Assembly: GCA_013698395.1 (NCBI GenBank)
Contig: JACCUZ010000121.1
Span: 1 to 29,196, forward strand
From: Sporichthyaceae bacterium
GTDB lineage: Bacteria; Actinomycetota; Actinomycetes; JACCUZ01
DNA: 29,196 nt
Reading direction: 5' to 3'
The notes below the pieces were generated by a model. It ran no database searches. It was not told the origin of the DNA and saw only the letters and a program-made list of their open reading frames with translations. The translations under genes and the position numbers were made by a program. Positions 1,840 through 18,757 of the stretch are shown here, piece after piece; the stretch's first letter is position 1; every line of letters starts with the position of its first letter.

Positions 1840-2847
1840 TCAGGTCACGAGCACCGCACGGGCCTTGATCTCTCCGCGCTTGAGCCGCATCAGTGCTTGG
1901 TTCGCCTCGGCCAGCGGGTAGGGCTCGCAGACCGCCCGCAACTTGCTGGCCGCCGCGAGCTGGAGGACTTCACGCATCTGCTGCCGGCTGCCGAGAATCG
2001 AGCCGACCACCACTTTCTCCTCCGCGAACTGCACCTGACCGATCGTGGCGTGGACTCCGAGGATGATGATGCCTCCGGGCTTCGTCGCCTGGACGGCCTG
2101 GGCGACCACGGCGTCCGAGGGGGCGAAGACGATGGCAGCGTCCACCCCGCCGGACTTGGCCAGTGTCTCACCGGGATCCTCCCGCGACGCGTCGACAGTG
2201 CGCGAGGCGCCCAGCTCCCTCGCCAGTTCGAGATGAGCGGCGCCGCGGCTCACAGCAATGACATCGCCGCCGTATAGCGCGGCGAGCTGGAGAACCACGT
2301 GTCCGACACCACCCACCCCGAACACCGCCACGCTCTTGGTCGGTGAGAGGCTCGCCTTCGCGACGCTTCCGTAGGCAGTGATGCCGGGGCAGAACAATGG
2401 CGCAGCGTCGGCGAAGTCGAGCTCATCAGGCAGCGGGTGAGTGTGACCGGCGGTCGCGAGCATGTACTCGGCATAGCCTCCGTCGACCGTCTCGCCCGTG
2501 ATCTCCTTGGACTGGCAGAGCTGCTCGCGTCCTGACAGGCAGTACTCACATCGACCGCATGTCGACCAGATCGGCTGGACGCCCACCCGGTCGCCGACGT
2601 CGAACCCTGTCACCCCCTCACCGAGGGCTTCCACCGTCCCGACCACCTCGTGCCCGGGGATGATCGGAAAGATGGAGGGAACACCGGCCCAGTGGCCCTC
2701 GACCATGTGCAGGTTCGAGCGGCATACGCCGCACGCCGCGACCTTCACCAAGACCTGGCCGGTGCCAGGCTCGGGGTCGTCCCGCTCGGTGACGAGCAGT
2801 GGTTCGTCCTCGATCTGACCGTAGGCGTCAAGCAGGACAGCCCTCAT
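1840..2847 (-). CDS. Zinc-dependent medium-chain alcohol dehydrogenase (AdhP/CAD-like)
   Basis: Start MRAVLLD at 2847 with GGAGG RBS; the longer ORF start at 3135 overlaps dhaL. Catalytic Zn ligands CGVC, GHE, FCPG; structural Zn CGRCEYCLSGREQLC; GVGGVG. Confidence 0.9.
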   Translation of the reverse strand: MRAVLLDAYGQIEDEPLLVTERDDPEPGTGQVLVKVAACGVCRSNLHMVEGHWAGVPSIFPIIPGHEVVGTVEALGEGVTGFDVGDRVGVQPIWSTCGRCEYCLSGREQLCQSKEITGETVDGGYAEYMLATAGHTHPLPDELDFADAAPLFCPGITAYGSVAKASLSPTKSVAVFGVGGVGHVVLQLAALYGGDVIAVSRGAAHLELARELGASRTVDASREDPGETLAKSGGVDAAIVFAPSDAVVAQAVQATKPGGIIILGVHATIGQVQFAEEKVVVGSILGSRQQMREVLQLAAASKLRAVCEPYPLAEANQALMRLKRGEIKARAVLVT

Positions 2848-2878
2848 GGTGAAGCCTCCAGGGTGTTGTGATGTGAAC

Positions 2879-3508
2879 TCAGGTGTTGGTGCCGCGCGCG
2901 GAAGCGAACAACGCCTCAAGCAGTCGGAGGTATGCGGTTGCCCCGGGATCGGGATGGCCAATGCTGCGCTCGCCGACCCAGGCCGCCCGGCCACGTCTCG
3001 ACTGCAGCGCCGAAGTCTCCTCCACGGCCGTCCGCGCGTCGGCGACCATCCGGGCCAGCATGTCCTCATCGGGAATGTCCGAAGACTCGGCGATGTCAAC
3101 CGTTGGCGCCATGGCGTCGAGGATCGTCTTGTCACCCAGCTGGGCCTTGCCCCGCGTCATGATGCTGTCGAAGGCAGCCCGAAGCATCGCGGCGGCACCC
3201 TGCCTGTCGAGCTCGCCGGAGTCACCGACAGTCTTAGCACCAGCGAGCAAGGCTCCACCCACGAGCGCCGCCATGGTCGAGGGGTTGCCGCCCGCGAAGG
3301 AAGCACCCGACGTCCGGAGCACCTGACCCGGAGTGGGATCCGCATCCAGCGCGGCAAGCTTGGTGCGCACAGCTGCACACCCCTTGCTGACGGTGATGCC
3401 GAGGTCGCCATCGCCTACGGCCGCATCGAGGTCGCGCAGTTCGTCCCGACTCGCCTCCAGAACGCCCAGCGCCTGGTCGACCAGCTGGCGCAGCTCGGTC
3501 CCGTTCAC
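2879..3508 (-). CDS. dhaL: Dihydroxyacetone kinase L subunit (DAK2 domain)
   Basis: DAAVGDGDLG, GKAQLGDKTILDA, GRAAWVGERSIGHPDPGA; 4-nt GTGA overlap with the dhaK stop. Confidence 0.9.
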   Translation of the reverse strand: MNGTELRQLVDQALGVLEASRDELRDLDAAVGDGDLGITVSKGCAAVRTKLAALDADPTPGQVLRTSGASFAGGNPSTMAALVGGALLAGAKTVGDSGELDRQGAAAMLRAAFDSIMTRGKAQLGDKTILDAMAPTVDIAESSDIPDEDMLARMVADARTAVEETSALQSRRGRAAWVGERSIGHPDPGATAYLRLLEALFASARGTNT

Positions 3509-4503
3509 TGCTGGAAGAAGGGTGACCGAGCGGGCGCGTCGAGCAGCTGCGTCAGCTCGTTGTCGAGCCGGATCACCGAGACGGAGGCTCCGGCCATCTC
3601 CAGGCTGGTCGCGAACTCGCCGACGTACGGTCGGTGAATCTCCACACCGATGTCGTCGAGCAGCGCATGCGCGCGGCGGTACAGGACGTAAAGCTCCTCG
3701 AGGGGGGTAGCCCCCAAGCCGTTGACGAGCACGGCAACTCGGTCGCCGGAGACCAGCTCGAGGTCGTCGGTGATAGCGCCGACGAGTCGGTCGGTCACGG
3801 CGTCCGCCGTCTCCAGTGCCCCACGGTGTATGCCAGGTTCGCCGTGAATGCCGATGCCGATCTCCATCTCACCTGCAGCGAGCTCGAACGTCGGCTTTCC
3901 TGCTGCCGGCAGGATGGTTGGCGACAGGCCGACACCCATGGTGCGGGTGTTCGCCACGGCGGCAGCCGCGATCTCGGCGACCCCCTCGAGATCGGCTCCA
4001 CGCTCGGCGGCCGCACCCGCGCACTTATAGGCGAAGAAGATGCCAGCGATGCCGCGCCGCTCCGCGGCTCGGTCGGGAGGCGCCGAGGCAACGTCGTCGG
4101 CCGCTAGAACGGTGCGCGTGGGTATCCCTTCGGCGTCCGCGAGGTCTCCGGCGAGGTCGAAGTTGAGGACATCGCCTCCGTAGTTTCCGTAGAGATAGAG
4201 CACTCCGGCGCCGCCACTGGACGCCTGTGTCGCCGACAGCATCTGCTCGGCGGACGGCGAGGAGAACACGTTGCCGATCGCCACTCCGGTACACAGTCCC
4301 GATCCGACGTAGCCCAGGAAGAGCGGCAGATGCCCCGAGCCGCCCCCGGTCACGATGCCCACCTTGCCGTCTAGGGGTGCATCCGCCCTGACAAGCGCCC
4401 GGTTGTCCGGTGCGGCTGACCTCAGCAGGTGATGATGCGCCAGCAGCAACCCGTCGAGCACCTCGTCGACGAACGCGTCTGGGTCGTTGATGAGCTTCTT
4501 CAC
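3505..4503 (-). CDS. dhaK: Dihydroxyacetone kinase K subunit (DAK1 domain), variant subfamily
   Basis: GTG start (KKLINDP) behind AAGGAG RBS; GGGSGHLP, GNVFSSPS, NYGGD, EIGIGIHGEPG, NGLGATPLEEL, TSLEMAGAS. Confidence 0.88.
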   Translation of the reverse strand: MKKLINDPDAFVDEVLDGLLLAHHHLLRSAAPDNRALVRADAPLDGKVGIVTGGGSGHLPLFLGYVGSGLCTGVAIGNVFSSPSAEQMLSATQASSGGAGVLYLYGNYGGDVLNFDLAGDLADAEGIPTRTVLAADDVASAPPDRAAERRGIAGIFFAYKCAGAAAERGADLEGVAEIAAAAVANTRTMGVGLSPTILPAAGKPTFELAAGEMEIGIGIHGEPGIHRGALETADAVTDRLVGAITDDLELVSGDRVAVLVNGLGATPLEELYVLYRRAHALLDDIGVEIHRPYVGEFATSLEMAGASVSVIRLDNELTQLLDAPARSPFFQQ

Positions 4504-4534
4504 CGGGTCTCCTTCGTCTCGGACGTCTCCTGCC

Positions 4535-5668
4535 TTACTGTTCATGCTCCCGCTCACGCGGTGGGACGGGCGGCCCCAGTGCTGCCGGCAACTGCTCTGA
4601 CGGAGCCCCGTCGACATCTCGACCGCTCCGCATCCGTAGTGCCGAGCGGAGGTCGTATCGCTGTGTGATGGTGCTCAGGCCCAGGACGCCGATGAGAATG
4701 ACCCCCTGCGCGATCTGGTAGAGGAACGAGTTGAAACCCACCATGTTGAACCCGCTCGCGACCATCTGGAGGACGAAGGCCGACAGCACGACACCGGTCA
4801 CCGTGCCGGAGCCGCCCATGGGGTTCACGCCACCAAGAACCACGATCACGATGGCGAGCAGGACGTAGGACGCTCCGTAGTCTGCGTTGGCGCTCGCGGA
4901 ACGAGCGGCGATGAGGATGCCCGCGAGCGACGACAAGAAGGCACTCATGAGATAGGTCCGCATCAAGACGCGGTCGTTGTTCAGGCCGCTGTACCTGGCG
5001 GCCGTCGGGTTGGCACCGACGAGCTTGATCCGCAGCCCCATGCCGGTCCGGTTCACGAAGACCGCCGTACCGACCGCCGCTAACAGCAGGACAACCACCG
5101 GCGCTGGCACGCCAGCGACGAAGCCCGTGCCAATGTTCAGGAAGCTCTCGGGCATGCCATAGATCGCCCGACCACCGGTCCAGACGATCGCCACCCCGTT
5201 CAGCAGCTGGAGCGTGCCGAGCGTCGCCAGGATGGGGGTTATGCGCAACCGCGTGATCAACAGCCCGTTGAGCGCCCCGCAAGCCGTGCCGGCAGCCACC
5301 CCGACGGCTATGAACCCCACCGTCATCACCACCGAGCTGCTCCCGGACGCCGTGCCCGACCCAGCGGACATGAACAGCTGGGCGGTGACGATCGCGGCGA
5401 TGTTCGCGATCGAGACGATGGACAGATCGATCCCGCCGGTCAGCATGGTCAGCGCGATGGCGAGGCTAAGCAGGCCGATCTCGGCGACCTGGAATCCCAT
5501 CGACTGAAAATTGATGATCGAGAAGAAGTTCCCGCTCGCCAGCGAAAAGATGACAAGCACCACCAACGCGATCGAAGCCAGGCGCACCACGCCGCGCTCG
5601 ACCAACATGCGCTGCACGAGCCGCGCAGTGGGATCGCTGACACCGGTGCGACCGGCTCCGTCGCTCAC
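4535..5668 (-). CDS. Sugar ABC transporter permease (CUT2/RbsC family)
   Basis: GGIDLSI, TPILATLGT, GANPTAARYSGL, VVLGGVNPMGGSG; multiple hydrophobic segments. Confidence 0.92.
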   Translation of the reverse strand: MSDGAGRTGVSDPTARLVQRMLVERGVVRLASIALVVLVIFSLASGNFFSIINFQSMGFQVAEIGLLSLAIALTMLTGGIDLSIVSIANIAAIVTAQLFMSAGSGTASGSSSVVMTVGFIAVGVAAGTACGALNGLLITRLRITPILATLGTLQLLNGVAIVWTGGRAIYGMPESFLNIGTGFVAGVPAPVVVLLLAAVGTAVFVNRTGMGLRIKLVGANPTAARYSGLNNDRVLMRTYLMSAFLSSLAGILIAARSASANADYGASYVLLAIVIVVLGGVNPMGGSGTVTGVVLSAFVLQMVASGFNMVGFNSFLYQIAQGVILIGVLGLSTITQRYDLRSALRMRSGRDVDGAPSEQLPAALGPPVPPREREHEQ

Positions 5669-6711
5669 GCCGGTGCCCCCTCTGCGACGAGGTCCGCCGA
5701 CGTGCGTCGAGACCGAGCGCTGAGAGCCTGCGCCCCGACTCCGACGATCAGCAGCAACCCGACCGCAGCGCGCTGCCAGGATCCCGGCACGCCCAGGAGG
5801 ATCAGCGAGTTGCGGATCAGGGAGATCAGCACGACGCCCAGCACGGTGCCGCTCACGGACCCCTTGCCACCGAAGATGGACGCACCACCTAGGACGACCG
5901 CCGCGATCACGTCGAGCTCGCCACCAACGAGTTCGTAGGGATTAGCCAGGCGTACGCGGGTGACGTGTATCAACCCGGCCACGCCGGCGAGCAGGCCGGC
6001 GAACAGGTAGATGAAGAACTGGATGCCGACCACCGGAAAGCCCGCCCGCCGCGCGGACTCGGCGTCCCCGCCCACGGCGTAGATACCTCTCCCGACCATC
6101 GTGTACCGCAACAACAGGCTCACGAGCACGCAGATGAGGACAGCTGGGACGATGAGCACGCTCAGTCGCGTGGAGGACGTCCCGGTCGCGGTCACGAGAT
6201 AGTTGGTCGACAGCTTGTCGAGCCCCTCTGGATAGTCGGGGATCACCTTGGAGCCGACATAGGCCAGCATCGCGCCACGGATGATTCCTTGAGTCCCGAG
6301 CGTGACGATGAGAGTCGGAAGGTGCAGGCCGGCGATCGCCGCGGCGTTGAGGACGCCGAGGGCCACGCCGATCACAGCGGCGAGCACGAAGCCCACTGGT
6401 GCGCTCGACGCCCCGAAGCCGGTCTCGTTGGTCAGGACGATCACCGAATAGCCGCAAAAAATTCCGATCGCCATGAAGGAGACGTCGATCCCGCCAGAGA
6501 TGATCACGATGAGAACGCCCATCGCGAAGATCACATTGGTCATGGAGTTCGAGGCCACGTTGAGCATGGTCCGAACACTCCAGAACGACGGCTCGACCAC
6601 GCCCACGCCTACGCACAGCACCAGGATGGTCAGCGCGAGGATGCCCTCGTTATTGCTACCGCGCAGCCGGGACAGCCACGGGCGCTGCCCGGCGTCAGAG
6701 GCTGTCGTCAT
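5665..6711 (-). CDS. Sugar ABC transporter permease (CUT2/RbsC family)
   Basis: SGGIDVSF, LPTLIVTLGT, GRGIYAVGGDAESARRAG, ELDVIAAVVLGGASIFGGKG. Confidence 0.92.
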   Translation of the reverse strand: MTTASDAGQRPWLSRLRGSNNEGILALTILVLCVGVGVVEPSFWSVRTMLNVASNSMTNVIFAMGVLIVIISGGIDVSFMAIGIFCGYSVIVLTNETGFGASSAPVGFVLAAVIGVALGVLNAAAIAGLHLPTLIVTLGTQGIIRGAMLAYVGSKVIPDYPEGLDKLSTNYLVTATGTSSTRLSVLIVPAVLICVLVSLLLRYTMVGRGIYAVGGDAESARRAGFPVVGIQFFIYLFAGLLAGVAGLIHVTRVRLANPYELVGGELDVIAAVVLGGASIFGGKGSVSGTVLGVVLISLIRNSLILLGVPGSWQRAAVGLLLIVGVGAQALSARSRRTSADLVAEGAPA

Positions 6712-8204
6712 GCTGCGAGCTCCCTTAGCACAGTCTCTTCGGTGAGCTGTTCACCACTCAGCTCTCCGACAAGACGGCCCTGCCGCACGACCAGGACACG
6801 GTGACAGATGGCTACGAGCTCCGGCACGTCGTCAGAGATGATGACGATTCCCATGCCGTCACGGCTCTTGGCCTGGAGCAGTTCGAGTATCTCGTGCTTG
6901 GAGCCGATGTCGACGCCGACGGTGGGGCTATTGAGGATGAGGACGTGCGGGTCACGGGCAAGCCACTTGCCCAGCGCCACCCGTTGCTGGTTGCCGCCGG
7001 ACAGGCTCCGGACCGGAGCGTCGGCTGAGGACATCTTGATCCGCAGGCCCGTCGCGGTCTCGTCCACCGTCCGCTGCGCAAGCCCAGGGCGCACCAGGTC
7101 GAGCTTGCCGACCAACCGGTCCAGGCTGCCGGCGATGATGTTCCGGCCGATGGACTGGTCGAGGAAGACTCCCTGGGTGAGGCGGTCCCCCGGGACATAG
7201 CCGATGCCTGCCTTGATCGCGTCCTGCGGTGAGCGCAGGCGCACCGGCCGCCCGTCGACACTAACGGATCCGGCGTCCGCCGGAGTCACCCCGAAGAGTG
7301 CCTCGGCTATCTCGCTGCGCCCCGATCCGAGCAGCCCGGTGACGCCGACGACCTCACCTGGTTGCACGCTGAAAGTCACGTCCTTGAACCGACCTTGCAG
7401 GCCGAGTCCCTCGACCTCGAGGAGAGGTTGCTCACTCGAGCGCACGGACTCCGCCGGTCTGGCGTCGGTGACTGCTCGTCCCGTCATCGCCTTGACGATG
7501 GCTGCCCTGTCGAACCGCGTGACGTCACCGGTTACCGCCACGACACCGTTGCGGAGGACGGTGATCCGCTCGGAGATGCGCAGCACCTCCTCGAGCTTGT
7601 GGCTCACGAACACCAGACCGACTCCGCGTTCCTTGAGCGACTCGACAACCCTGAACAGGGCCTCCACCTCCCGCCAGGTGAGGGCTGTCGTCGGCTCGTC
7701 CATGAAGATGATCTGCGCATCACGGGCGAGTGCCCGGCTGATCGCGATGAGCTGCCGGTCGGCGACGGGGAGGTCCTCGACCCGGGCATCAAGGTCGATG
7801 CGAACGCCGATTCGCTCAAGCGCCTCGGCCGCGATACGGCGCACCACGCGCGGCCGCACAACCTTGCGCCGGTCCGCCACCTGAGCAGCGAGCCCGATGT
7901 TCTCGGCCACCGTGAGGTTGGGAAAGAGCGAGAAGTCCTGGAAGATCACCTCGATGCCCAGGCCGATCGCTTGGCGCGGAGTCAGGTGGTGGAACAACTC
8001 GCCGCCGATGCCGATCGTGCCGGCGTCGGGGGCTACGACACCGGCGATGACCTTGATGAGCGTCGACTTGCCAGACCCGTTCTCACCGGCCAAGCAGTGA
8101 ACTTCGCCCGGTCGGACGTCGAAGGAGACGTCAGCGAGCGCGACGACCCCCCCGAAGTGCTTCGAGATGCCGGTCGCCGCGAGCAGAGGCTCAGCTGGAG
8201 CCAT
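6708..8204 (-). CDS. Sugar ABC transporter ATP-binding protein (two-domain RbsA/MglA type)
   Basis: Walker A GENGSGKST; IFMDEPT; LSGGNQQRV; degenerate second Walker B (LILNSPT); AGGAGAGG RBS. Confidence 0.95.
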   Translation of the reverse strand: MAPAEPLLAATGISKHFGGVVALADVSFDVRPGEVHCLAGENGSGKSTLIKVIAGVVAPDAGTIGIGGELFHHLTPRQAIGLGIEVIFQDFSLFPNLTVAENIGLAAQVADRRKVVRPRVVRRIAAEALERIGVRIDLDARVEDLPVADRQLIAISRALARDAQIIFMDEPTTALTWREVEALFRVVESLKERGVGLVFVSHKLEEVLRISERITVLRNGVVAVTGDVTRFDRAAIVKAMTGRAVTDARPAESVRSSEQPLLEVEGLGLQGRFKDVTFSVQPGEVVGVTGLLGSGRSEIAEALFGVTPADAGSVSVDGRPVRLRSPQDAIKAGIGYVPGDRLTQGVFLDQSIGRNIIAGSLDRLVGKLDLVRPGLAQRTVDETATGLRIKMSSADAPVRSLSGGNQQRVALGKWLARDPHVLILNSPTVGVDIGSKHEILELLQAKSRDGMGIVIISDDVPELVAICHRVLVVRQGRLVGELSGEQLTEETVLRELAA

Positions 8205-11409: not shown

Positions 11410-11432
11410 CGGTCCGCCTCATCTCCTCGCCC

Positions 11433-11448
11433 TGCGCGATATCGCGCA
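11433..11448. promoter_or_regulatory. Perfect 16-bp palindrome, candidate operator for the leftward sgcX operon
   Basis: TGCGCGATATCGCGCA, 24 nt upstream of the sgcX start and just downstream of the candidate promoter. Confidence 0.5.
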
Positions 11449-11463
11449 CCTGTTCGGCACCGC

Positions 11464-11493
11464 ACTCTGGTCCTAGTGCGAACGTGAGGTCAA
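11464..11493 (-). promoter_or_regulatory. Candidate housekeeping-sigma promoter of the sgcX-sgcQ-ABC-dhaKL-adh operon
   Basis: Minus strand TTGACC-N18-CAGAGT. Confidence 0.4.
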
Positions 11494-11550
11494 GGCGCCG
11501 TTACCGGTCCGTTAACAATCTTCCCTGATGCACGAATCCGCGCACCTGGC

Positions 11551-11556
11551 TAGCAT
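11551..11556 (+). promoter_or_regulatory. Candidate -10 (TAGCAT) of the DeoR-FGGY operon
   Basis: TANNNT 21 nt before the ATG at 11578, followed by an AGGAAGGGG RBS; no clear -35. Confidence 0.45.
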
Positions 11557-11577
11557 CGCGCGGCAGGAAGGGGTTGG

Positions 11578-12396: not shown

Positions 12397-13898
12397 TGTT
12401 CCTGGGAGTGGACATCGGCACCGCGAGCAGCAAGGCCGTGGCCGTCGCCGCCGATGGGACCCTCGTCGCATCCGCGATTCGTCCACATCTGACCACCACG
12501 CCGCATCCGGGATGGTTCGAGCACGACGCCGAGGATGTCTGGTGGTCCGACTTCCGAGAACTGACCCACGAGGTGCTCTCGACGGTTCCCGGTCACGAGG
12601 TCACGTGCGTGGGGGTCAGCGGCATCGGTCCCAGCACGCTGCTCACCGACGTCGGCGGCCAGCCGCTGCGGGCCGCCATCCTCTATGGGATCGACACCCG
12701 TGCTGAGCGCGAAATCGAGGAGCTGACCGAGACTCTCGGCGCGGGTCGGTTGCTCGAGGTCAATGGGAACCGGCTCACCTCGCAGGCGGTGGGACCAAAG
12801 TTCCTGTGGGTCGCCCGGCATGAACCCGAGGTGTGGGAGCGGGCGCGGCGGTGGTACGGCGCGTCCAGCTGGCTCGTGCAGCGCCTGACCGGCGAGTACG
12901 TGCTCGACCACTACTCGGCGAGCACGTCCGATCCGCTCTACGATCTCGGCAGGAGCGACTGGTGGGCGGACGGGTGGGCGGCGTCCGCCCCTGGCATCGA
13001 GCGCCCCCGCCTCGCCTGGCCCGGTGACGTCGTGGGTGAGGTGCATACGGCCGCGGCCGAAGCGTGCGGCATCGCCGCCGGCACACCCGTCGTCGCCGGG
13101 ACCATCGACGCGCTCGCCGAGGCGCACAGCGTCGGGTCCGACGGGATCGGTGACACGATGGTCATGTACGGCTCGACTCTGTTCCTCATCCAGACAGTGG
13201 CACGGCCAGCAGTCCACGGCGGCTTGTGGGCAGCCAGCGGGCGAACCCCCAACACCAACTCCGTCGCCGCCGGCATGGCCACCTCCGGCCTCGTCACAAC
13301 GTGGTTCGCAGAGGTCACCGGTCAATCCCTCGGCGATCTCACCGCACAGGCGGCAGAGGTGCCGGCCGGCAGCGATGGACTGGTCCTGCTGCCGTACTTC
13401 GCAGGTGAGCGCACGCCTCTGTTCGACCCGAGAGCCCGTGGATGCTGGCTGGGTCTCACGCTCGGGCACACCAGGGCACACCTTTACCGGTCGGCACTCG
13501 AGGGCGTGGCCTACGGCGTGCGCCACAATCTCGATGCGATGGCCGAGGCCGGCGCGCCCCCACGACGGCTCGTTGCGGTCGGTGGAGGCACGCGGGGGAA
13601 CCTCTGGACGCACATCGTCAGCGATGTGACGCAGTTGCCACAGGATCTCCCCACCACCACGATCGGCGCATCGTACGGCGACGCACGCCTAGCCGCCGAG
13701 GCGGTCGGCGTCGATACGCGGGCGTGGAACCCCGTCGCGCAACGCATCGAACCGGACCCGTCCCCTGCCGGTCTGTACGACGAGCTGTACGCCGTATTTC
13801 GTCACACGTATCCGGCGATTCGCGACGAGATGCACCGGCTCGCGGCGGCAGTCACGATGCGAGGGTCAGCACCGCGCAAGCGGTCTCCTCATCCGTGA
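12396..13898 (+). CDS. FGGY-family carbohydrate kinase (xylulokinase-like subgroup)
   Basis: LGVDIGTASSK, PGWFEHD, AILYGIDTRA, GTIDA, LPYFAGERTP, RSALEGVAYG, VGGG; TGATG coupling to the DeoR gene. Confidence 0.92.
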   Translation: MFLGVDIGTASSKAVAVAADGTLVASAIRPHLTTTPHPGWFEHDAEDVWWSDFRELTHEVLSTVPGHEVTCVGVSGIGPSTLLTDVGGQPLRAAILYGIDTRAEREIEELTETLGAGRLLEVNGNRLTSQAVGPKFLWVARHEPEVWERARRWYGASSWLVQRLTGEYVLDHYSASTSDPLYDLGRSDWWADGWAASAPGIERPRLAWPGDVVGEVHTAAAEACGIAAGTPVVAGTIDALAEAHSVGSDGIGDTMVMYGSTLFLIQTVARPAVHGGLWAASGRTPNTNSVAAGMATSGLVTTWFAEVTGQSLGDLTAQAAEVPAGSDGLVLLPYFAGERTPLFDPRARGCWLGLTLGHTRAHLYRSALEGVAYGVRHNLDAMAEAGAPPRRLVAVGGGTRGNLWTHIVSDVTQLPQDLPTTTIGASYGDARLAAEAVGVDTRAWNPVAQRIEPDPSPAGLYDELYAVFRHTYPAIRDEMHRLAAAVTMRGSAPRKRSPHP

Positions 13899-14838
13899 CC
13901 AGCACGTTCACCAAGCGACAACGCAGGGCCCCAAGGACGGCCTCCGCCTTGCGCCGACCGGCCGCAACCCCGATCACTCGGGGGATCCGGCTTAGCGGTG
14001 CAGCGGCGATGGCGATGACCCGTCGCTGGAACTCCGACTCGACAAGCCGGCCTTCCGCGGTGAACAGATGTCCGCACACGTCCCCGACGGCCCCGGTACG
14101 CCGGATGTCGGCGAGCCCCCTTCGGCTCAGATACCCGGCCCGCAGCAGAGACGACACCTCGGGTATCAGTGCGCCGATGCCCACAAGCGCCACGTCGGCT
14201 TGGCCGGCCGCCGCCAGCGTGTCCCGGACACCTCGCTGCCGCAACAGTGCGCTCGCCACCTCCTCGCTGTCGACAACGAGCGGCGCGTTCAGGTAGCGGC
14301 ATCGGCCGCCCAGCAGGTCGGCCAGCCGGCGGGCTAGCTCGGTGCCATCGACCTGTGGGTCGCGACTGCACGCTCCACCGAGCATCTGGACCACTTCAAC
14401 GGTTCGGGGGATCCGAGGTTCCAGGGCATCGGTGACAGCCCGCAAGCTCGTGCCCCACGAGATGGCGAGCACATCATCATCTGTCAGGACTCCGTCGACG
14501 TACCGCGCAGCCAAGGCGCCCACGCGACCCAGTAGCGCCTCCGCGGGACCGTGAGCCGCGAGAACGAGCGCATCGCGCAGCCCGAACGTCGAGACGAGCG
14601 CCCGCTGAACGTCCTCCGCGAGCGCCAACGGGCGACGGATCCGGATTTCGACGATCCCAGTGTCGAGTGCCTCGCTAAGCATCCGGGAGACGGTCGACCG
14701 GGAGACTTTCATCCGCCTGGCGATCTCCTGCTGGTCGAGCCTGGACTGGTAGTACAACGCCGCGGCATCGGCGACCAGGTCCTCGCGGCGGCCCTCCGCG
14801 CTGCCCACGGACCGCGGGGCGGCCCGGGCCTCTGCCAC
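13852..14838 (-). CDS. SorC/LsrR/CggR-family sugar-binding transcriptional regulator
   Basis: AALYYQSRLDQQEIARRMKVSRSTVSRML HTH; ISWGTSL; VALVGIG; GAVGDVCGH; IGVAAGRRKAEA; LVTDE. GTG start 2 nt after the lipoyl gene stop; the ORF-track start at 15027 overlaps the lipoyl gene. Confidence 0.92.
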   Translation of the reverse strand: MAEARAAPRSVGSAEGRREDLVADAAALYYQSRLDQQEIARRMKVSRSTVSRMLSEALDTGIVEIRIRRPLALAEDVQRALVSTFGLRDALVLAAHGPAEALLGRVGALAARYVDGVLTDDDVLAISWGTSLRAVTDALEPRIPRTVEVVQMLGGACSRDPQVDGTELARRLADLLGGRCRYLNAPLVVDSEEVASALLRQRGVRDTLAAAGQADVALVGIGALIPEVSSLLRAGYLSRRGLADIRRTGAVGDVCGHLFTAEGRLVESEFQRRVIAIAAAPLSRIPRVIGVAAGRRKAEAVLGALRCRLVNVLVTDEETACAVLTLAS

Positions 14839-14840: not shown

Positions 14841-15089
14841 CTAGGCCTGCCCGCTCTCGTCGATGTAGGCGATGGTTTCGCCCTCGACGGCCGATTGACC
14901 TTCCGCGCAGACGGTCCTGGTAAGGGTGCCGGTGTACAGCGACTCGACAGACATGTCGACCTTGTCCGTCGCTACGTCGAACAGCGGCTCGCCCTTCACG
15001 ACGCGGTCGCCGGGCGCCTTGTGCCAAAGGGCCAGCACAAGGTCGCCCGCCGCGTCCCCCATCGGGGGCATCACCACGGCAACTTCCAT
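14841..15089 (-). CDS. Stand-alone lipoyl (biotin/lipoyl attachment) domain protein, 82 aa
   Basis: VVMPPMG...WHKAPGDRVVKGEPLFDVATDKVDMSVES...G...V..G..IAYI. Lipoyl-Lys in TDKV; GAGGAAGG RBS; stops with no peripheral-subunit-binding or acyltransferase domain. Confidence 0.9.
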   Translation of the reverse strand: MEVAVVMPPMGDAAGDLVLALWHKAPGDRVVKGEPLFDVATDKVDMSVESLYTGTLTRTVCAEGQSAVEGETIAYIDESGQA

Positions 15090-15098
15090 TGGCCTTCC

Positions 15099-16097
15099 TC
15101 AGCTGCTCAGCAGGTCACGCACGGCCAGGACCACGTCTTCGACGTCCGGGATCAGTGTTCGCTCCAGCTCGGTGTGAGCCGGCAGAACGACGTCTGGGGC
15201 AGTGAGTCGCCGGACGGGAGCAGCCAACTCGCCGAAGAGCTGCTCGCCGACGGTGGCGGCGATCTCGGCACCGAGGCCGCCCGTGCGGCAGGCCTCGTGC
15301 AGCACCAGCACGCGTCGGGTCGAGCCGGCGGAGTCGAGCACTGTCGTCATGTCCAGTGGCGCGAGGCAGCGCATGTCCACGACCTCGACGGACACGCCGT
15401 CCGCAGACAGCCGCTCTGCGGCTTCGAGCGCAATGTGAACGTGGTTGGACCAGGTAACGATGGTCACGTCCGTGCCCGTCCGCTTGACGTCCGCGACACC
15501 GAGCGGCACCACATGGTCGACTTCTGCTGCCGCTCCTTTGCGCGGGTAGAGGCCCTTGTGCTCGATGAACAGGACCGGATCGTTGTCCCGGATAGCGGCC
15601 TTCAGGAGTCCCTTGGCATCGGCAGGCGTGCTGGGAGCCACCACCTTGAGGCCCGGGACATGGGCAAACCATCCCTCAAGGCTCTGGGAATGCTGCGAGC
15701 CCGCGCCCCGACCGGTGCCCTGTTGGACTCGCACGACGAGAGGTGCATTGAACTGCCCGCCGAACATGTAATGGACCTTCGCCGCCTGGTTCACCAGGTT
15801 GTCCATGGCCAGAGTGACGAAGTCCATGTACATGATCTCCGCCACTGGTCGGGCACCGACCATGGCGGCACCGAGGGCAGCTCCAACGATGAGCGCTTCC
15901 GACATCGGCGTGTCGATGACCCGGCGCTCGCCGAACCTCTCCAGCAGGCCTCGGGACACGGCGTAGGCACCACCGTAACGGCCAACATCCTCGCCGAGAA
16001 GGATCACGCTCTCGTCCGCCTCCATCTCCTCGTGCAACGCTTCCCGTAGCGCGTCACGAAAGGACACCGTCCGGGCGGAGCTGAGGGTGCCAGTCAC
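15099..16097 (-). CDS. TPP-dependent dehydrogenase E1 beta subunit (AcoB/PdhB-like)
   Basis: LGEDVG, RVIDTPMSE, AEIMYMDF, QHSQSLEGWF, PGLKVV, DPVLFIEHK, EVVDMRCLAPLD. Confidence 0.92.
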   Translation of the reverse strand: MTGTLSSARTVSFRDALREALHEEMEADESVILLGEDVGRYGGAYAVSRGLLERFGERRVIDTPMSEALIVGAALGAAMVGARPVAEIMYMDFVTLAMDNLVNQAAKVHYMFGGQFNAPLVVRVQQGTGRGAGSQHSQSLEGWFAHVPGLKVVAPSTPADAKGLLKAAIRDNDPVLFIEHKGLYPRKGAAAEVDHVVPLGVADVKRTGTDVTIVTWSNHVHIALEAAERLSADGVSVEVVDMRCLAPLDMTTVLDSAGSTRRVLVLHEACRTGGLGAEIAATVGEQLFGELAAPVRRLTAPDVVLPAHTELERTLIPDVEDVVLAVRDLLSS

Positions 16098-17098
16098 TGG
16101 TCGCCTCCCAACGGAGTGGCGTAGATGTCGGAGAAGACCTCATCCACGGAGGCGATCGGTCCTGCCTCCGCGAACTCCATGGCGGCGACGATCTCGGCCT
16201 CGATCTCTCGCTCCAGTGACTCGGTGACATCGCCCGCGACGCCGGCGGCGGAAAGCCGAATTTTCTCCAGCAGGAGCGGATCCCGCGCATGCCAGCGCTG
16301 CTCCTCCTCGCGGTCGCGGTAGGTACTCGGGTCGCCCCGGGAGTGGCCCAGGAAACGGTATGTCTCGACACCGAGCAACGTGGGCCCTTCTCCTCGGCGA
16401 GCCCGTGACACTGCCTGGTCGGCCGCCTCGCGAACCGCAAGCACGTCCTGGCCGTCGACGTCGACACCGATGATGCCGTAGCCCTCGGCCTTGCGTGCGA
16501 CACTCGGCTGAGCCGTGGCTCGCTCCCATGGCAACGACATGGCGTAGTGATTGTTCTCAATGACGAAGACCACCGGCAATCCGCGAACGGCGGCGAAGTT
16601 CACCGCCTCGTGGAAGATGCCTTCCGTTGTGGCGCCATCCCCGAAGAAGGACACCGCCACCCTGGACTGCCCCGTCAGTGAGCTCCAGAGGGCCGCGCCG
16701 GTCGCGATCGGGATATGCCCACCGACGATCGCATTCGAACCCAGGTGACCGATGGATGCATCGACCAAGTGCATCGAGCTGCCACGACCGCGGCAGGCGC
16801 CGGTCTCGCGACCCATGAGCTCCGCCATGAGGGCACTCATGGCACCTCCTCGGGCCAGGAAATGTCCGTGCCCCCGGTGAGTACTGGTGACGTAGTCCTC
16901 CGGACGGAGCACATCGCATACCCCAACCGCGACCGCCTCCTGGCCGATGCTGACGTGGCACATCGTGCTGGACAAGCGGTTCTGAAGGAGCAGTTCCAAG
17001 ATCCGCTCCTCAGCTCGGCGGATCCTCACCATCCCGCGGTAGAGCCGCACCAGCGTTGAAACGTCGACGATTCTGGTGTCCTGATCAAAGACGGACAT
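16094..17098 (-). CDS. TPP-dependent dehydrogenase E1 alpha subunit (AcoA/PdhA-like)
   Basis: SIGQEAVAVG, STHRGHGH, GRGSSMH, TPP motif GDGATTEG...ENN, TYRFLGH. Confidence 0.92.
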   Translation of the reverse strand: MSVFDQDTRIVDVSTLVRLYRGMVRIRRAEERILELLLQNRLSSTMCHVSIGQEAVAVGVCDVLRPEDYVTSTHRGHGHFLARGGAMSALMAELMGRETGACRGRGSSMHLVDASIGHLGSNAIVGGHIPIATGAALWSSLTGQSRVAVSFFGDGATTEGIFHEAVNFAAVRGLPVVFVIENNHYAMSLPWERATAQPSVARKAEGYGIIGVDVDGQDVLAVREAADQAVSRARRGEGPTLLGVETYRFLGHSRGDPSTYRDREEEQRWHARDPLLLEKIRLSAAGVAGDVTESLEREIEAEIVAAMEFAEAGPIASVDEVFSDIYATPLGGDQ

Positions 17099-18635
17099 GC
17101 TCGACCACCTCGTGCATCAATTGCCGCATCGCATCGAACGACGCGACGTACCTGTCGAAGTAGAACTGGTAGGCGGCGTGGTTCACGGCGTCCGGATGGA
17201 TCTCGCGCTCGACGTGAACCATCGCCCGAGCCGCCGTCGCCACGTCTGGGTAGATGTCGCCGGCGACTGAGGCGAGGATGCCGGCACCTAGGCTGACGGC
17301 CTCCGGTACCGCCGTGATCGTGATGGGAAGGTTCGACACGTCGGCGTGGATCTGCATCCACAGATCGCTCTTGATCGCGCCTCCGCAGGCGACGACGTCG
17401 TCGATCTGATGCCCGCAGGAGGCGAACGTGCGGAAGATGTTTTCGGTCCCGAAGCAGACGGCTTCGATCAGCGCGCGATAGATGTGTGCCGGCGTATGCC
17501 CGAGGCTGAGCCCCCAGATCATGCCGCGGGCGTCGGCATCGACGTAGGGCGTCCGATTTCCCTGCCAGAAGTCCAGTGCGAGGACACCGTCGCACCCTGG
17601 CGGGATGCGCTTCGCCTGCTCCTGCAGCACGCGGAAGACCCGGTCGGGCGGGATCGCACCGGTCGAGAAGTGTTCACCGCTGCAGAGGTTCCGGAACCAG
17701 CTGATCACGGAGCCCGTGGAGACCTGGCCCCCCTCGATCGTGTAGTGCCCGGGAACGACCGCGTCTGTGTATGCGCCGAACATGCCAGGCGCGTAGCTCG
17801 GCGTCTCCGTCTGCGCCAGGTGCAGGTGCGAGGAGCCGGTGATCAGTGCGGCCCGCCCCGGGGAGATGACGTTGAGACCCACCATCCCGACGAAGGCATC
17901 GGCCCCGCCTTCGGCGACCGGCGTCCCAGGCAGCAGGCCGAGCTCGTCAGCCGCCTGGGAGGTCAGCGTTCCCAGCGGGCCGCCCATGTCGACCACCCGG
18001 GCCGGCAGCTTCTCGACGAGGTCAGGCAGTCCCACTGCGGAGAACAACGTGGCCGGCCAGCCACCGGCCGCACGGTCGTAGTAGCCCCGGATGGAAGCGG
18101 TGTTGATGCTCACCGCCCACTCCCCGGTCAGCCGGTAGCCCAGCCAGTCGGTGAATTCCAGGATGTGGGCAGCGCGCTCGTAGGTACCGGGCTCGTGGTC
18201 GGCCAGCCACAGCACCTTGCTCAGCAGCCACTCGGCCGAGATCTTGGTGTACCCGCTGTACTTCAGTGCGGGATCACCCGTTTGCGCAATGCGACCCGCC
18301 TCTTGGGAGGCACGGACGTCCATCCAGATAAGCGCGGGCCGCAGTGGTTCCCCTGCGGCATCGGTGGTCACCACCGTGCAACTGGTGCATGCAACCGCGA
18401 TGCCACGGATGTCGGCCACGTCGACCCGGCTCAGGCTCACCGCCTCACGAGTCGCCGCCACAGCAGCCGCCCACCAGTCCTGCGGATCCTGCTCGGCCCA
18501 ACCCGGACGCGCATGAACCGTCCGGTAAGGCGCCCGTGCGAAAGCGACCTGCCGACCAGCGGTGTCGAAAACGGCCGCGCGCATGGCCTCAGTGCCGCCG
18601 TCGAGGCCGAGGACATACCGCCCTCTGTCCTGCAT
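17085..18635 (-). CDS. FGGY-family carbohydrate kinase (ribulokinase/pentulose kinase-like)
   Basis: YVLGLDGGTE, PGWAEQDP, IWMDVRA, GGADA, EGGQVSTG, LDFWQGNRTPY, IYRALIEAVCFG, CGG. Start taken as ATG 18635 (MQDRGR). Confidence 0.92.
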   Translation of the reverse strand: MQDRGRYVLGLDGGTEAMRAAVFDTAGRQVAFARAPYRTVHARPGWAEQDPQDWWAAAVAATREAVSLSRVDVADIRGIAVACTSCTVVTTDAAGEPLRPALIWMDVRASQEAGRIAQTGDPALKYSGYTKISAEWLLSKVLWLADHEPGTYERAAHILEFTDWLGYRLTGEWAVSINTASIRGYYDRAAGGWPATLFSAVGLPDLVEKLPARVVDMGGPLGTLTSQAADELGLLPGTPVAEGGADAFVGMVGLNVISPGRAALITGSSHLHLAQTETPSYAPGMFGAYTDAVVPGHYTIEGGQVSTGSVISWFRNLCSGEHFSTGAIPPDRVFRVLQEQAKRIPPGCDGVLALDFWQGNRTPYVDADARGMIWGLSLGHTPAHIYRALIEAVCFGTENIFRTFASCGHQIDDVVACGGAIKSDLWMQIHADVSNLPITITAVPEAVSLGAGILASVAGDIYPDVATAARAMVHVEREIHPDAVNHAAYQFYFDRYVASFDAMRQLMHEVVEHVRL

Positions 18636-18660
18636 GCTGGGCTTGACTAGGTCAGTAGAT

Positions 18661-18699
18661 CTTGCACACTTGTGCAAGGCACCGGGAATCTGTGCACAG
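18661..18699. promoter_or_regulatory. Paired TGCACA/TGTGCA dyads, candidate operator for the SorC-family regulator
   Basis: CTTGCACA-CT-TGTGCAAG (18661-18678) and CTGTGCACAG (18690-18699); both perfect dyads, between the promoter and the kinase start. Confidence 0.65.
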
Positions 18700-18703
18700 T
18701 TCC

Positions 18704-18732
18704 ACACTGGCATTCCCCGGGAGGGCAGTCAA
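18704..18732 (-). promoter_or_regulatory. Candidate promoter of the FGGY-E1a-E1b-lipoyl-SorC operon
   Basis: Minus strand TTGACT-N17-CAGTGT with an extended -10 TG. Confidence 0.55.
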
Positions 18733-18757
18733 CAGGGGTCGGTCGGCCTCCTCGACC

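What the first reader, a model, noticed from the sequence alone, without database searches (positions are those of the whole stretch)
1840..18740. Candidate undescribed sugar-catabolic system: ABC import, two FGGY kinases, SgcX/SgcQ, lipoyl-dependent TPP cleavage, DhaKL/ADH salvage
Seen: 15 genes in three units under two sugar-phosphate-sensing regulators (DeoR, SorC), each co-transcribed with its own FGGY kinase, and served by one ABC importer. The set matches no pathway I know. There is no aldolase, classic isomerase/epimerase, transketolase or polyol dehydrogenase, yet two orphan proteins (SgcX, SgcQ) and an incomplete 2-oxoacid dehydrogenase are present. Inference: an unusual ketose, branched sugar or sugar conjugate is imported, phosphorylated and processed by SgcX/SgcQ. 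It would then be cleaved by E1ab onto the lipoyl carrier, with the C3/C4 fragment salvaged by DhaKL and an aldehyde by-product reduced by the ADH.
Basis: partly seen in the sequence, partly recalled or inferred. Interest (0 to 1): 0.88.

Follow-up and report, generated by a model that had tools for sequence, protein, structure and literature searches.

The report
Composite ketose-uptake and cleavage gene island
This is a real, conserved gene island in an uncultured actinobacterium, built from three swappable modules (an importer with its own dihydroxyacetone-kinase-like enzyme, the unexplained "sgc" enzymes, and a sugar kinase joined to a thiamine/lipoic-acid cleavage enzyme); it probably consumes a small ribulose-like keto-sugar by a route not yet described.

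Summary
The genes are there as described. I count 16, not 15, in three transcription units. The literature I searched describes no pathway for this set.

Neighbourhood analysis changes the emphasis. The importer's tightest partner is a special DhaK/DhaL pair (45-47 of 58 related loci), not the sgc or E1 genes. This pair has an altered substrate loop, and the genome keeps a canonical GlpF-DhaKLM set elsewhere.

- **Sgc-like module:** M42 or M29 hydrolase, BtpA/SgcQ and an FGGY kinase. It also occurs without the other modules.
- **E1 cassette:** FGGY2-E1alpha-E1beta-lipoyl-SorC. It also occurs alone.
- **Co-occurrence:** all three modules sit together in at least eight other loci, but these belong to one lineage. 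One unrelated low-GC locus independently joins the same importer type, DhaL and the E1 cassette.
- **Swaps in sister loci:** the E1 set is replaced by a ribulose-phosphate-epimerase-type gene or a split transketolase.
- **Binding protein:** it keeps five of six D-ribulose contacts of E. coli AauA.

The best reading is a ribulose-like ketose that is imported, phosphorylated and cut in a transketolase-like way onto a lipoyl carrier.

The substrate and every reaction remain inferred. This scan had already noted both the E1 cassette and the sgc-like module on other genomes. What is new here is their union around the importer-DhaKL core.

The parts
1840..2847 (-). Zn-dependent alcohol dehydrogenase / aldehyde reductase, last gene of unit 1 (start ATG 2847)
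   Evidence: It carries ADH_N and ADH_zinc_N domains and is closest to adh_fam_2, Ahr and AdhP, below their cut-offs. Start codon. Orthologues of 59-68% identity follow DhaL in type A loci.
2879..3508 (-). DhaL (Dak2, nucleotide-binding subunit)
   Evidence: Dak2 E 6e-38. The best NCBIfam model is PRK14479, fused DAK family. Found in 47 of 58 SBP-seeded loci.
3505..4503 (-). DhaK-like subunit of a distinct subfamily (GGGSGHLPLFLGY loop)
   Evidence: Dak1 E 9e-116. The catalytic His, Asp and His align with E. coli DhaK, but the loop differs from GGGSGHEPMHCGY. All 45 importer-linked DhaKs share GHLP[LVT]F[KL]GY. A canonical DhaK lies on contig C175.
4535..6711 (-). Two CUT2-type ABC permeases (4535-5668, 5665-6711)
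   Evidence: BPD_transp_2 in both.
6708..8204 (-). Double ABC ATPase
   Evidence: Two ABC_tran stretches.
8288..9322 (-). Lipoprotein solute-binding protein (Peripla_BP_4), ribulose-binder-like
   Evidence: PDB hits are 5BRA at 263 bits and AauA 9I1M at 187 bits. K49, W55, E130, H179 and E208 align with the AauA D-ribulose contacts. A lipobox LAAC is present.
9443..10276 (-). BtpA/SgcQ-family TIM barrel, function unknown, phosphate-binding
   Evidence: BtpA E 7e-73. The model has pLDDT 94.6. It is 43% identical to E. coli SgcQ with TM 0.93. The C-terminal part matches the phosphate-binding motif of GGGPS and TrpA.
10273..11409 (-). M42 (SgcX-like) metallohydrolase, first gene of unit 1, overlapping BtpA by 4 nt
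   Evidence: Peptidase_M42 E 2e-68. Replaced by M29 in other loci.
11410..11577 (.). Divergent promoter region with two direct ATCxCGCGCACCTG repeats
   Evidence: The repeats are not above chance on their own.
11578..12396 (+). DeoR-family regulator
   Evidence: HTH_DeoR and DeoRC. A DeoR gene is present in 51 of 58 SBP-seeded loci.
12396..13898 (+). FGGY1 kinase, xylulokinase-like, coupled to DeoR
   Evidence: It is the kinase of the DeoR-BtpA-FGGY triad; in the BtpA-seeded set DeoR genes occur in 48 and FGGY kinases in 51 of about 80 loci.
13852..14838 (-). SorC-family regulator, last gene of unit 3
   Evidence: Sugar-bind E 1e-66. Start.
14841..15089 (-). Free 82-aa lipoyl carrier (lipoyl Lys43 in TDKV)
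   Evidence: Biotin_lipoyl. Sequence.
15099..17098 (-). E1beta (15099-16097) and E1alpha (16094-17098) of an acetoin/pyruvate-dehydrogenase-type TPP enzyme
   Evidence: Orthologues of 58-77% identity always lie in FGGY-E1a-E1b-Lip order.
17085..18635 (-). FGGY2 kinase, ribulokinase-like, overlapping E1alpha by 14 nt
   Evidence: Start ATG 18635.
18636..18757 (-). Promoter/operator region of unit 3 with GTGCACA ... TTGCACAAGTGTGCAA half sites
   Evidence: The same half-site pattern lies upstream of FGGY2 in L012, L014, L087, L089 and L090.

Best explanation
The stretch is one functionally linked but modular catabolic island for a small, furanose-forming ketose. The ketose resembles D-ribulose: a pentulose, perhaps a hexulose or a conjugate of one.

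**Module 1, the core.** A DeoR regulator, a CUT2 ABC importer and a special DhaK/DhaL pair, followed by an aldehyde reductase. The DhaKL pair phosphorylates either the imported ketose itself or the unphosphorylated triose-size fragment left after cleavage.

**Module 2, the ABC-and-kinase form of the E. coli sgc set.** An aminopeptidase-type metallohydrolase (M42 here, M29 elsewhere), the FGGY1 kinase and the BtpA/SgcQ barrel, which binds a phosphorylated substrate.

**Module 3, a self-regulated cassette.** FGGY2 makes a ketose phosphate. The E1alpha/beta TPP enzyme cuts it between C2 and C3 as transketolase does. The two-carbon unit is passed oxidatively to the free lipoyl protein. A housekeeping E2/E3 would then release it as acyl-CoA, and the remaining aldose (phosphate) would enter glycolysis.

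**Shown:** gene content, operon structure, conservation and recombination of the modules, and similarity of the binding site.

**Inferred:** the substrate, every reaction, and the order of steps.
For: **Importer and DhaKL**
- Among 58 loci of at least 6 kb seeded with the SBP, DhaL is present in 47 and DhaK in 45, usually directly after the permease genes. BtpA is present in only 13, and the E1 genes in only four or five.
- All linked DhaKs share a changed loop next to the catalytic His.
- The genome has a canonical GlpF-DhaK-DhaL-DhaM/EI set on another contig.

**All modules together**
- They are syntenic in L012, L014, L089, L090, L103, L104, L105 and L109.
- L093, from a low-GC organism, independently joins an SBP 47% identical to this one, a DeoR regulator, DhaL, an aldo-keto reductase and FGGY2-E1a-E1b-Lip, with no sgc genes.
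- Spongiactinospora and a Ktedonobacterium have the importer plus the sgc module without E1 or Dha genes.

**Conservation and swaps of the E1 cassette**
- The order FGGY2-E1a-E1b-Lip is kept in Actinomycetota, Chloroflexota and L093. In Chloroflexota the cassette has its own ABC importer, a separate E2 catalytic domain and two SDRs.
- In L007 and L009 a 47%-identical kinase is followed by an RPE-family epimerase instead of E1ab-Lip-SorC.
- In type B loci a split transketolase sits in the DhaKL operon.
- The experimentally validated E. coli apiose cluster has the same architecture, with a split transketolase in place of E1/E2.

**Binding protein and kinase**
- The SBP keeps K, W, E, H and E of the six AauA contacts to D-ribulose.
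- FGGY2 scores best against ribulokinase models.

**Other**
- The C-terminal part of BtpA matches the phosphate-binding motif of GGGPS and TrpA.
Against: - No experiment bears on any step.
- The full three-module arrangement is confined to one lineage (SBP at least 75% identical). It may reflect a single evolutionary event plus L093.
- The two regulators have different operator-like repeats, and no shared motif was found.
- In Chloroflexota the E1 cassette uses an unrelated SBP, so it does not need this importer.
- If FGGY2 made ordinary ribulose 5-phosphate, no dedicated downstream enzyme would be needed.
- The window has no E2 catalytic domain or E3, so release of the acyl group is unexplained.
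- Glycolyl-CoA, the product expected from a hydroxymethyl ketose, is not a common metabolite.
- The roles of two extra kinases beside DhaKL are not accounted for in detail.
Confidence: 0.5

Rival explanations
1. The units are neighbours, not partners. The importer-DhaKL-(sgc) unit and the SorC-FGGY2-E1-lipoyl cassette serve different substrates. The cassette is fed by a transporter elsewhere, and the synteny reflects inheritance within one lineage.
For: - Regulators and operator-like repeats are separate.
- Each module occurs alone.
- The Chloroflexota cassette has its own, unrelated SBP.
- All fully syntenic loci have SBPs 75-81% identical, so they form one clade.
Against: - L093 joins the same importer type and DhaL to the cassette in an unrelated genome.
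- There is no second importer in the window.
- In actinobacterial loci the cassette has lost the ABC genes it carries in Chloroflexota.
- TPP cleavage enzymes (split transketolase) recur beside this DhaKL in type B loci.
Confidence: 0.25
2. The E1 cassette cleaves a methyl-ketone sugar phosphate, not a hydroxymethyl ketose. The substrate would be 1-deoxy-pentulose 5-phosphate or phospho-DPD (phosphorylated autoinducer-2). The products would be acetyl-CoA plus glyceraldehyde 3-phosphate or 3-phosphoglycerate. This is an Lsr-like logic with different chemistry.
For: - The E1 belongs to the acetoin/pyruvate dehydrogenase type.
- A SorC regulator, an FGGY kinase and a CUT2 importer are also the parts of the Lsr system (established knowledge).
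- PGAP names 48%-identical SBPs 'autoinducer 2 ABC transporter substrate-binding protein'.
- Acetyl-CoA is a more natural product than glycolyl-CoA.
- Earlier notes of this scan proposed the same.
Against: - The SBP scores 187 bits against the D-ribulose binder AauA but 54-66 bits against LsrB structures.
- FGGY2 scores 337 bits against ribulokinase and 236 bits against AI-2 kinase.
- The PGAP-named SBPs in fact sit in deoK-deoC deoxyribose loci.
- The swaps with RPE-type epimerase and transketolase point to ordinary ketose phosphates.
Confidence: 0.15
3. The core is simply a high-affinity uptake and phosphorylation system for dihydroxyacetone or glyceraldehyde. The other genes are unrelated additions.
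For: - About 20 loci hold only DeoR, the importer and DhaKL, so the kinase product should be a central metabolite.
- The DhaK catalytic His, Asp and His are conserved.
Against: - The genome already has a canonical GlpF-DhaKLM set.
- The importer-linked DhaKs all carry an altered loop.
- The SBP keeps residues that hold a furanose ketose in AauA.
- Accessory kinases, hydrolases and C-C cleaving enzymes recur in the same operons.
Confidence: 0.1

Closest known systems
E. coli K-12 sgcXBCQAER operon (orphan, substrate unknown)
   Same: An M42 SgcX-like protein is translationally coupled to a BtpA/SgcQ protein (43% identical, TM 0.93) under a DeoR regulator. Sister loci L007 and L009 also carry an RPE-type (SgcE-like) gene.
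   Different: Uptake is by an ABC importer plus FGGY kinase instead of a galactitol-type PTS. There is no SgcE in the window. DhaKL and an E1/lipoyl cassette are attached.
Acetoin dehydrogenase enzyme system (AcoA/AcoB/AcoC/AcoL)
   Same: A heterotetramer-type E1alpha/E1beta with TPP motifs and a lipoyl acceptor. This E1 type is known to cleave a ketol rather than decarboxylate an acid.
   Different: The lipoyl domain is a free 82-aa protein. There is no E2 core or E3 in the locus. The E1 is translationally coupled to a sugar kinase and governed by a SorC sugar-phosphate regulator. The substrate is not shown to be acetoin.
D-apiose transketolase pathway cluster (aplK, aptA/aptB; E. coli ST131/SE15, Pectobacterium)
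   Same: The architecture is CUT2 importer + FGGY kinase + SorC regulator + a TPP enzyme cleaving a ketose phosphate, with two SDRs in the Chloroflexota form of the cassette.
   Different: The TPP enzyme is a split transketolase, not E1/lipoyl. The kinase is only 22-24% identical and the SBP is not detectably orthologous.
Aau and Rbl D-ribulose uptake systems of EHEC and Citrobacter rodentium (PMC12307932)
   Same: A CUT2 importer whose SBP (AauA, 9I1M) aligns at 187 bits with five of six ligand contacts conserved. A ribulokinase-type FGGY kinase acts downstream.
   Different: Those systems feed ribulose 5-phosphate straight into the pentose phosphate pathway. They have no DhaKL, sgc or E1 genes.
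Dihydroxyacetone kinases (PTS-dependent DhaKLM; ATP-dependent DAK)
   Same: Dak1 and Dak2 domains, with the catalytic His, Asp and His conserved.
   Different: The subunits are split, with no DhaM in the locus. The loop is changed to GHLPxFxGY. The genes are embedded in an ABC importer operon. A canonical DhaKLM is present elsewhere.
Lsr autoinducer-2 uptake and processing system
   Same: A CUT2 importer, an FGGY kinase, a SorC-family repressor, and cleavage to an acyl-CoA.
   Different: There is no LsrF or LsrG. The SBP and kinase score well below the LsrB and LsrK cut-offs.

Membership tests
sgc-type system (E. coli sgcXBCQAER) | BtpA/SgcQ-family protein | tested here: met
   Scores 243 bits against TIGR00259, above the 153-bit cut-off. 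It is 43% identical to P39364 with TM 0.93.
sgc-type system (E. coli sgcXBCQAER) | M42 SgcX-like protein adjacent to SgcQ | tested here: met
   Peptidase_M42 E 2e-68, with a 4-nt overlap with BtpA.
sgc-type system (E. coli sgcXBCQAER) | Galactitol-family PTS components SgcA/B/C | tested here: not met
   No PTS domains appear in the interval. An ABC importer and an FGGY kinase take their place.
sgc-type system (E. coli sgcXBCQAER) | RPE-like SgcE | tested here: not met
   Absent from the window. Present in sister loci L007 and L009.
Acetoin / 2-oxoacid dehydrogenase complex | E1alpha and E1beta with TPP and pyrimidine-binding domains | tested here: met
   E1_dh matches profile positions 2-297 of 300. 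Transket_pyr and Transketolase_C are present.
Acetoin / 2-oxoacid dehydrogenase complex | E2 with lipoyl domain fused to a catalytic core | tested here: not met
   Only a free 82-aa lipoyl protein is present. A separate catalytic domain occurs in the Chloroflexota cassettes. E2-type domains lie elsewhere in the genome.
Acetoin / 2-oxoacid dehydrogenase complex | E3 dihydrolipoamide dehydrogenase in the operon | tested here: not met
   None in the window. The rest of the genome was not searched for E3.
Acetoin / 2-oxoacid dehydrogenase complex | Activity on acetoin or a 2-oxoacid | not testable with these tools
   Needs an enzyme assay.
PTS-dependent dihydroxyacetone kinase DhaKLM | DhaK and DhaL above the equivalog cut-offs | tested here: not met
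   DhaK scores 371 bits against a 406-bit cut-off, and DhaL 137.0 against 138.3. Both match the fused-DAK model PRK14479 best.
PTS-dependent dihydroxyacetone kinase DhaKLM | DhaM in the operon | tested here: not met
   The only EIIA-man match in the genome is on C175, beside the canonical DhaK.
D-ribulose importer (AauA type) | Six ligand-contact residues of 9I1M | tested here: inconclusive
   Five of six are conserved: K49, W55, E130, H179 and E208. Ser223 is replaced by Ala235. Overall similarity is 187 bits.
Lsr system | LsrB, LsrK, LsrF and LsrG orthologues | tested here: not met
   The SBP scores 86 bits against a 384-bit cut-off, and FGGY2 236 against 528. There is no LsrF/LsrG-type gene in the window.
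D-apiose transketolase pathway | AplK and AptA/AptB orthologues | tested here: not met
   FGGY2 is 24% identical to E. coli SE15 AplK. There is no transketolase in the window.

The most novel reading that the evidence does not exclude
A lipoyl-dependent, acetoin-dehydrogenase-type E1 acts as an 'oxidative transketolase'. It cuts a kinase-made ketose phosphate into an aldose phosphate and a two-carbon acyl group, carried on a free lipoyl protein and released as glycolyl- or acetyl-CoA. This would be a new exit from sugar catabolism, interchangeable in evolution with transketolase and RPE-type epimerase. In the same island, the orphan sgc enzymes (M42/M29 hydrolase and BtpA barrel) and a new DhaK subfamily work on the same imported ribulose-like ketose or on its amide-linked conjugate.
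Probability: 0.3. Interest if true: 0.8.

Novelty: new variant of a known kind. Interest (0 to 1): 0.6.

Why it matters
The E. coli sgc genes have had no known substrate or reaction since that genome was sequenced. Lipoyl-dependent E1 enzymes are known to act on 2-oxoacids and acetoin, not on sugar phosphates.

This island ties both puzzles to one importer. That importer's binding protein can be expressed and screened, and its sister loci offer natural swaps that narrow the chemistry:
- E1/lipoyl swapped with transketolase or an RPE-type epimerase;
- BtpA swapped with a DhnA-type aldolase;
- M42 swapped with M29.

The analysis also defines a DhaK subfamily that travels with an ABC importer, which suggests dihydroxyacetone-kinase-type enzymes act on larger ketoses. 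If the reading is right, annotation pipelines now mislabel these genes as pyruvate dehydrogenase, dihydroxyacetone kinase, aminopeptidase and AI-2 binding protein.

Tried and rejected
- **Literature.** Searches for SgcQ/BtpA, PF03437/COG0434/sgcX, and FGGY + acetoin dehydrogenase + lipoyl + SorC found no functional study. The M. smegmatis tetritol paper could not be fetched. What I recall of erythrulose kinases is therefore not used as evidence.
- **Apiose.** The E. coli SE15 cluster was fetched and compared. The architecture is parallel, but the kinase is 22-24% identical and there is no SBP match. Apiose is therefore not supported as the substrate.
- **AI-2.** Scores against the LsrB and LsrK models are far below the cut-offs.
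- **Deoxyribose.** Proteobacterial SBPs 48% identical sit in deoK-deoC loci, but they differ at contact position 179 (Q instead of H) and in the 233-237 loop.
- **Shared operator.** The palindrome TTGCACAnnTGTGCAA occurs once, upstream of FGGY2. It is not upstream of the other units and is not conserved as an exact word in other loci. Only the half-site pattern is conserved.
- **Upstream ALDH and HglS genes.** They are not conserved next to the cassette and were set aside.
- **BtpA fold search.** It gave only generic phosphate-binding TIM barrels (GGGPS, TrpA, KDPGal aldolase, RPE, OMPDC), so no reaction can be read from it.
- **BtpA versus DhnA/LacD-type aldolase.** Their mutual exclusion in SBP-seeded loci (13 loci against 9, no overlap) is suggestive.

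Full report
**1. What is in the sequence**

The window is contig C63 of an 80%-complete, 473-contig, high-GC MAG. Its closest loci come from uncultured Actinomycetota.

After refining start codons, the interval holds 16 genes in three units.

- **Unit 1 (minus strand, nine genes).** M42/SgcX, BtpA/SgcQ, a lipoprotein solute-binding protein (SBP), a double ABC ATPase, two permeases, DhaK, DhaL and a Zn-ADH of the Ahr/AdhP type.
- **Unit 2 (plus strand, divergent).** DeoR and FGGY1, whose stop and start codons share a base.
- **Unit 3 (minus strand).** FGGY2, E1alpha (14-nt overlap with FGGY2), E1beta, an 82-aa lipoyl protein with the lipoyl-lysine motif TDK43V, and SorC.

The interval has no aldolase, classic isomerase, transketolase, E2 core or E3. 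E2-type domains lie on other contigs. The aldehyde dehydrogenase and HglS genes just upstream are not found there in related loci.

**2. Neighbourhoods seeded with BtpA**

I took eighty genome loci encoding BtpA relatives and compared them by tblastn and by ORF clustering.

- DeoR genes recur in 48 and FGGY kinases in 51 of about 80 loci across Actinomycetota, Chloroflexota, Thermotogota and Bacillota. In the loci examined the kinase beside BtpA is FGGY1-like, giving a tight DeoR-BtpA-FGGY triad.
- The triad is served by three kinds of ABC importer: CUT2 as here, Bmp-type with a TRZ/ATZ-type amidohydrolase in Microbacteriaceae, and CUT1 in Chloroflexota and Thermotogota.
- An M42 gene accompanies BtpA in 15 loci, and an M29 aminopeptidase-family gene replaces it in others.

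The BtpA model is confident (pLDDT 94.6). It matches E. coli SgcQ at 43% identity and TM 0.93. It has no solved relative by sequence. Its C-terminal part matches the phosphate-binding motif of GGGPS and TrpA. The structure search returns only generic phosphate-binding TIM barrels.

This module is therefore the ABC-and-kinase counterpart of the orphan sgc operon, and its reactions remain unknown. Earlier notes of this scan reached the same view on other genomes. I checked it independently here.

**3. Neighbourhoods seeded with E1alpha**

Orthologues of 58-77% identity always lie in the order FGGY kinase, E1alpha, E1beta, small lipoyl protein.

- In two Chloroflexota loci the cassette is complete in itself: SBP, ATPase, permease, FGGY, E1a, E1b, Lip, a separate 240-aa E2 catalytic domain, SorC and two SDRs. 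Their SBP is not related to the window's.
- In actinobacterial loci the cassette has no transporter or E2 core. It sits next to the FGGY1/DeoR/M42/BtpA/ABC set.
- More distant E1 genes on plasmids are also embedded in sugar or polyol loci. In Rubrobacter they lie with a free lipoyl protein, an ABC importer, GlpD-like and GlpK-like genes and an aldolase. In Pseudoroseomonas they lie among PTS genes with a SorC-type regulator.

Earlier notes of this scan describe the same cassette on at least six other genomes.

**4. Neighbourhoods seeded with the SBP**

This was the most informative test. I took eighty metagenome loci with SBPs 54-81% identical and kept the 58 of at least 6 kb.

| Gene | Loci with it (of 58) |
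|---|---|
| ATPase | 57 |
| DeoR | 51 |
| Permeases | 50 |
| DhaL | 47 |
| DhaK | 45 |
| FGGY kinase | 26 |
| ADH | 20 |
| M42 | 17 |
| BtpA | 13 |
| E1 genes | 4-5 |

Four architectures appear.

- **Type A (window type).** All three modules.
- **Type B.** DhaK-DhaL-split transketolase in one operon; importer-M42-FGGY; a DhnA/LacD-type class I aldolase; a Zn polyol-dehydrogenase-type ADH; and a beta-hydroxyacid dehydrogenase. There is no BtpA.
- **Type C.** M29, BtpA and FGGY.
- **Type D.** Only DeoR, importer and DhaKL (about 20 loci, mostly one lineage).

The importer's constant enzymatic partner is therefore DhaKL. All 45 linked DhaKs carry GGGSGHLP[LVT]F[KL]GY where E. coli DhaK has GGGSGHEPMHCGY. 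The catalytic His, Asp and His are kept.

The same genome has a canonical aquaporin-like facilitator, a DhaK with the GHEPLHGGF loop, DhaL and a DhaM/EI fusion on contig C175. The window's pair is thus a specialised paralogue, not the cell's dihydroxyacetone kinase.

**5. Are the modules linked?**

That criterion is not met.

- Both units are syntenic in L012, L014, L089, L090, L103, L104, L105 and L109, and probably in the MAG whose contigs gave L087 and L008. All of these have SBPs of 75% identity or more, so they count as roughly one evolutionary event.
- Independent support comes from L093, a low-GC contig. There, DhaL, an aldo-keto reductase, an importer with an SBP 47% identical to this one and a DeoR regulator flank FGGY2-E1a-E1b-Lip, with no sgc genes.
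- Conversely, Spongiactinospora and a Ktedonobacterium carry the importer with the sgc module and no E1 or Dha genes.

The same importer type thus serves either accessory module. This argues that both act on its ligand or on close derivatives.

Regulation looks local. Conserved GTGCAC/TGTGCA half sites lie upstream of FGGY2 in type A loci. Different direct repeats lie in the M42/DeoR intergenic region. No motif is shared.

**6. What is the substrate?**

The SBP's best solved relatives are 5BRA (263 bits, ligand not known to me) and AauA (9I1M, 187 bits). AauA was crystallised with alpha-D-ribulose and has more than 200-fold preference for it over L-arabinose (PMC12307932).

- Five of its six contact residues align with identical residues here (K49, W55, E130, H179, E208). 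Ser223 is replaced by Ala235. The pattern holds across types A-D.
- Proteobacterial SBPs 48% identical lie in deoxyribokinase/DeoC loci and differ at position 179 and in the 233-237 loop.
- FGGY2 scores best against ribulokinase models, below their cut-off.
- In sister loci L007 and L009, a kinase 47% identical to FGGY2 is followed by an RPE-family epimerase in place of E1ab-Lip-SorC.
- In type B a split transketolase accompanies DhaKL.
- The experimentally validated E. coli apiose cluster is two SDRs, a CUT2 importer, an FGGY kinase, SorC and a split transketolase (PMC13001218). It has the same architecture as the Chloroflexota cassette, with transketolase in place of E1/E2. The proteins themselves are not orthologous.

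Together these point to a ketose phosphate with a transketolase-type head group as the E1 substrate, and to a ribulose-like ketose as the imported compound. This is inference, not proof.

**7. Mechanism proposed**

1. The ketose is imported.
2. FGGY2 phosphorylates its distal end.
3. E1alpha/beta adds TPP at C2 and releases the aldose phosphate.
4. The two-carbon unit reductively acylates the free lipoyl protein. A housekeeping E2/E3 would complete the cycle.
5. DhaKL phosphorylates either the ketose at the carbon next to the carbonyl, or an unphosphorylated triose fragment.
6. The aldehyde reductase (an aldo-keto reductase or beta-hydroxyacid dehydrogenase in other loci) disposes of an aldehyde by-product.
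7. The recurring aminopeptidase-type hydrolase (M42, M29, or an amidohydrolase in the Bmp-type loci) suggests the sgc-like branch handles an amide-linked derivative. BtpA would then act on the FGGY1 product.

The roles of three kinases, the fate of the acyl group and the order of steps are open. A methyl-ketone substrate (1-deoxy-pentulose phosphate or phospho-DPD), proposed in earlier notes, is kept as a rival.

**8. Verdict**

The finding is real and conserved, and I found no description of it in the literature searched. It is less a single linear pathway than a modular island around an importer-DhaKL core. Both accessory modules were already noted by this scan on other genomes. The new points here are:
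- the core itself;
- the specialised DhaK subfamily;
- the natural swaps: E1/lipoyl with transketolase or an RPE-type epimerase, M42 with M29, and BtpA with a DhnA-type aldolase;
- the ribulose-like binding site.

Noticed in passing
own genome, contig C175:18247-23365: A canonical dihydroxyacetone set: an aquaporin-like facilitator ORF, a DhaK with the GGGSGHEPLHGGF loop, DhaL, and an 847-aa DhaM (EIIA-man) fused to an EI-like part. The window's DhaKL is therefore a second, divergent copy.
   Followed up: partly
window 18758-21612 (minus strand): An aldehyde dehydrogenase and an HglS/DUF1338 (2-oxoadipate dioxygenase/decarboxylase family) gene overlap by 34 nt. They probably form a lysine/2-oxoadipate catabolic pair. 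They are not conserved next to the E1 cassette in related loci.
   Followed up: partly
L166:9680-20722 and L179:9935-20733: In the minimal DeoR-importer-DhaKL loci, a second, paralogous SBP-ATPase-permease set follows DhaL directly. This is a tandem duplication of the importer.
   Followed up: no
L100 (Rubrobacter indicoceani plasmid NZ_CP031117.1:1427-13018): A Zn dehydrogenase, E1alpha, E1beta, an 80-aa lipoyl protein, a sugar ABC importer, a GlpD-like dehydrogenase, a GlpK-like FGGY kinase and a class II aldolase lie in one string. This is another polyol-type locus with a free lipoyl carrier.
   Followed up: no
L099 (Pseudoroseomonas cervicalis plasmid NZ_CP115854.1:129446-143894): E1alpha, E1beta and an acetoin-type E2 sit between a glucitol-type PTS and a second PTS, with a SorC-type regulator nearby. 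This is an E1/E2 set fed by PTS transporters instead of an ABC importer plus kinase.
   Followed up: no
L019, L024, L059 and other Microbacteriaceae/Demequina loci: The DeoR-BtpA-FGGY triad is joined to a Bmp (PnrA-like, nucleoside-type) ABC importer and a TRZ/ATZ/MtaD-type amidohydrolase. This hints that this form handles a nucleoside-like compound.
   Followed up: partly
L183 and L184 (Paracoccus and Caballeronia plasmids): SBPs that PGAP names 'autoinducer 2 ABC transporter substrate-binding protein' lie in loci with ribokinase-type kinase, DeoC and a large aldehyde dehydrogenase. These look like 2-deoxyribose utilisation loci, so the automatic name is probably wrong.
   Followed up: partly
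window 13852-13898: The 3' ends of the convergent FGGY1 and SorC genes overlap by 47 nt.
   Followed up: no
window 21597-29196: The rest of the window was only scanned by Pfam and lies outside this finding. It holds DUF1206, PRC-barrel/DUF2382, an ECF sigma-like fusion, an SDR and a 698-aa ORF without a Pfam match.
   Followed up: no
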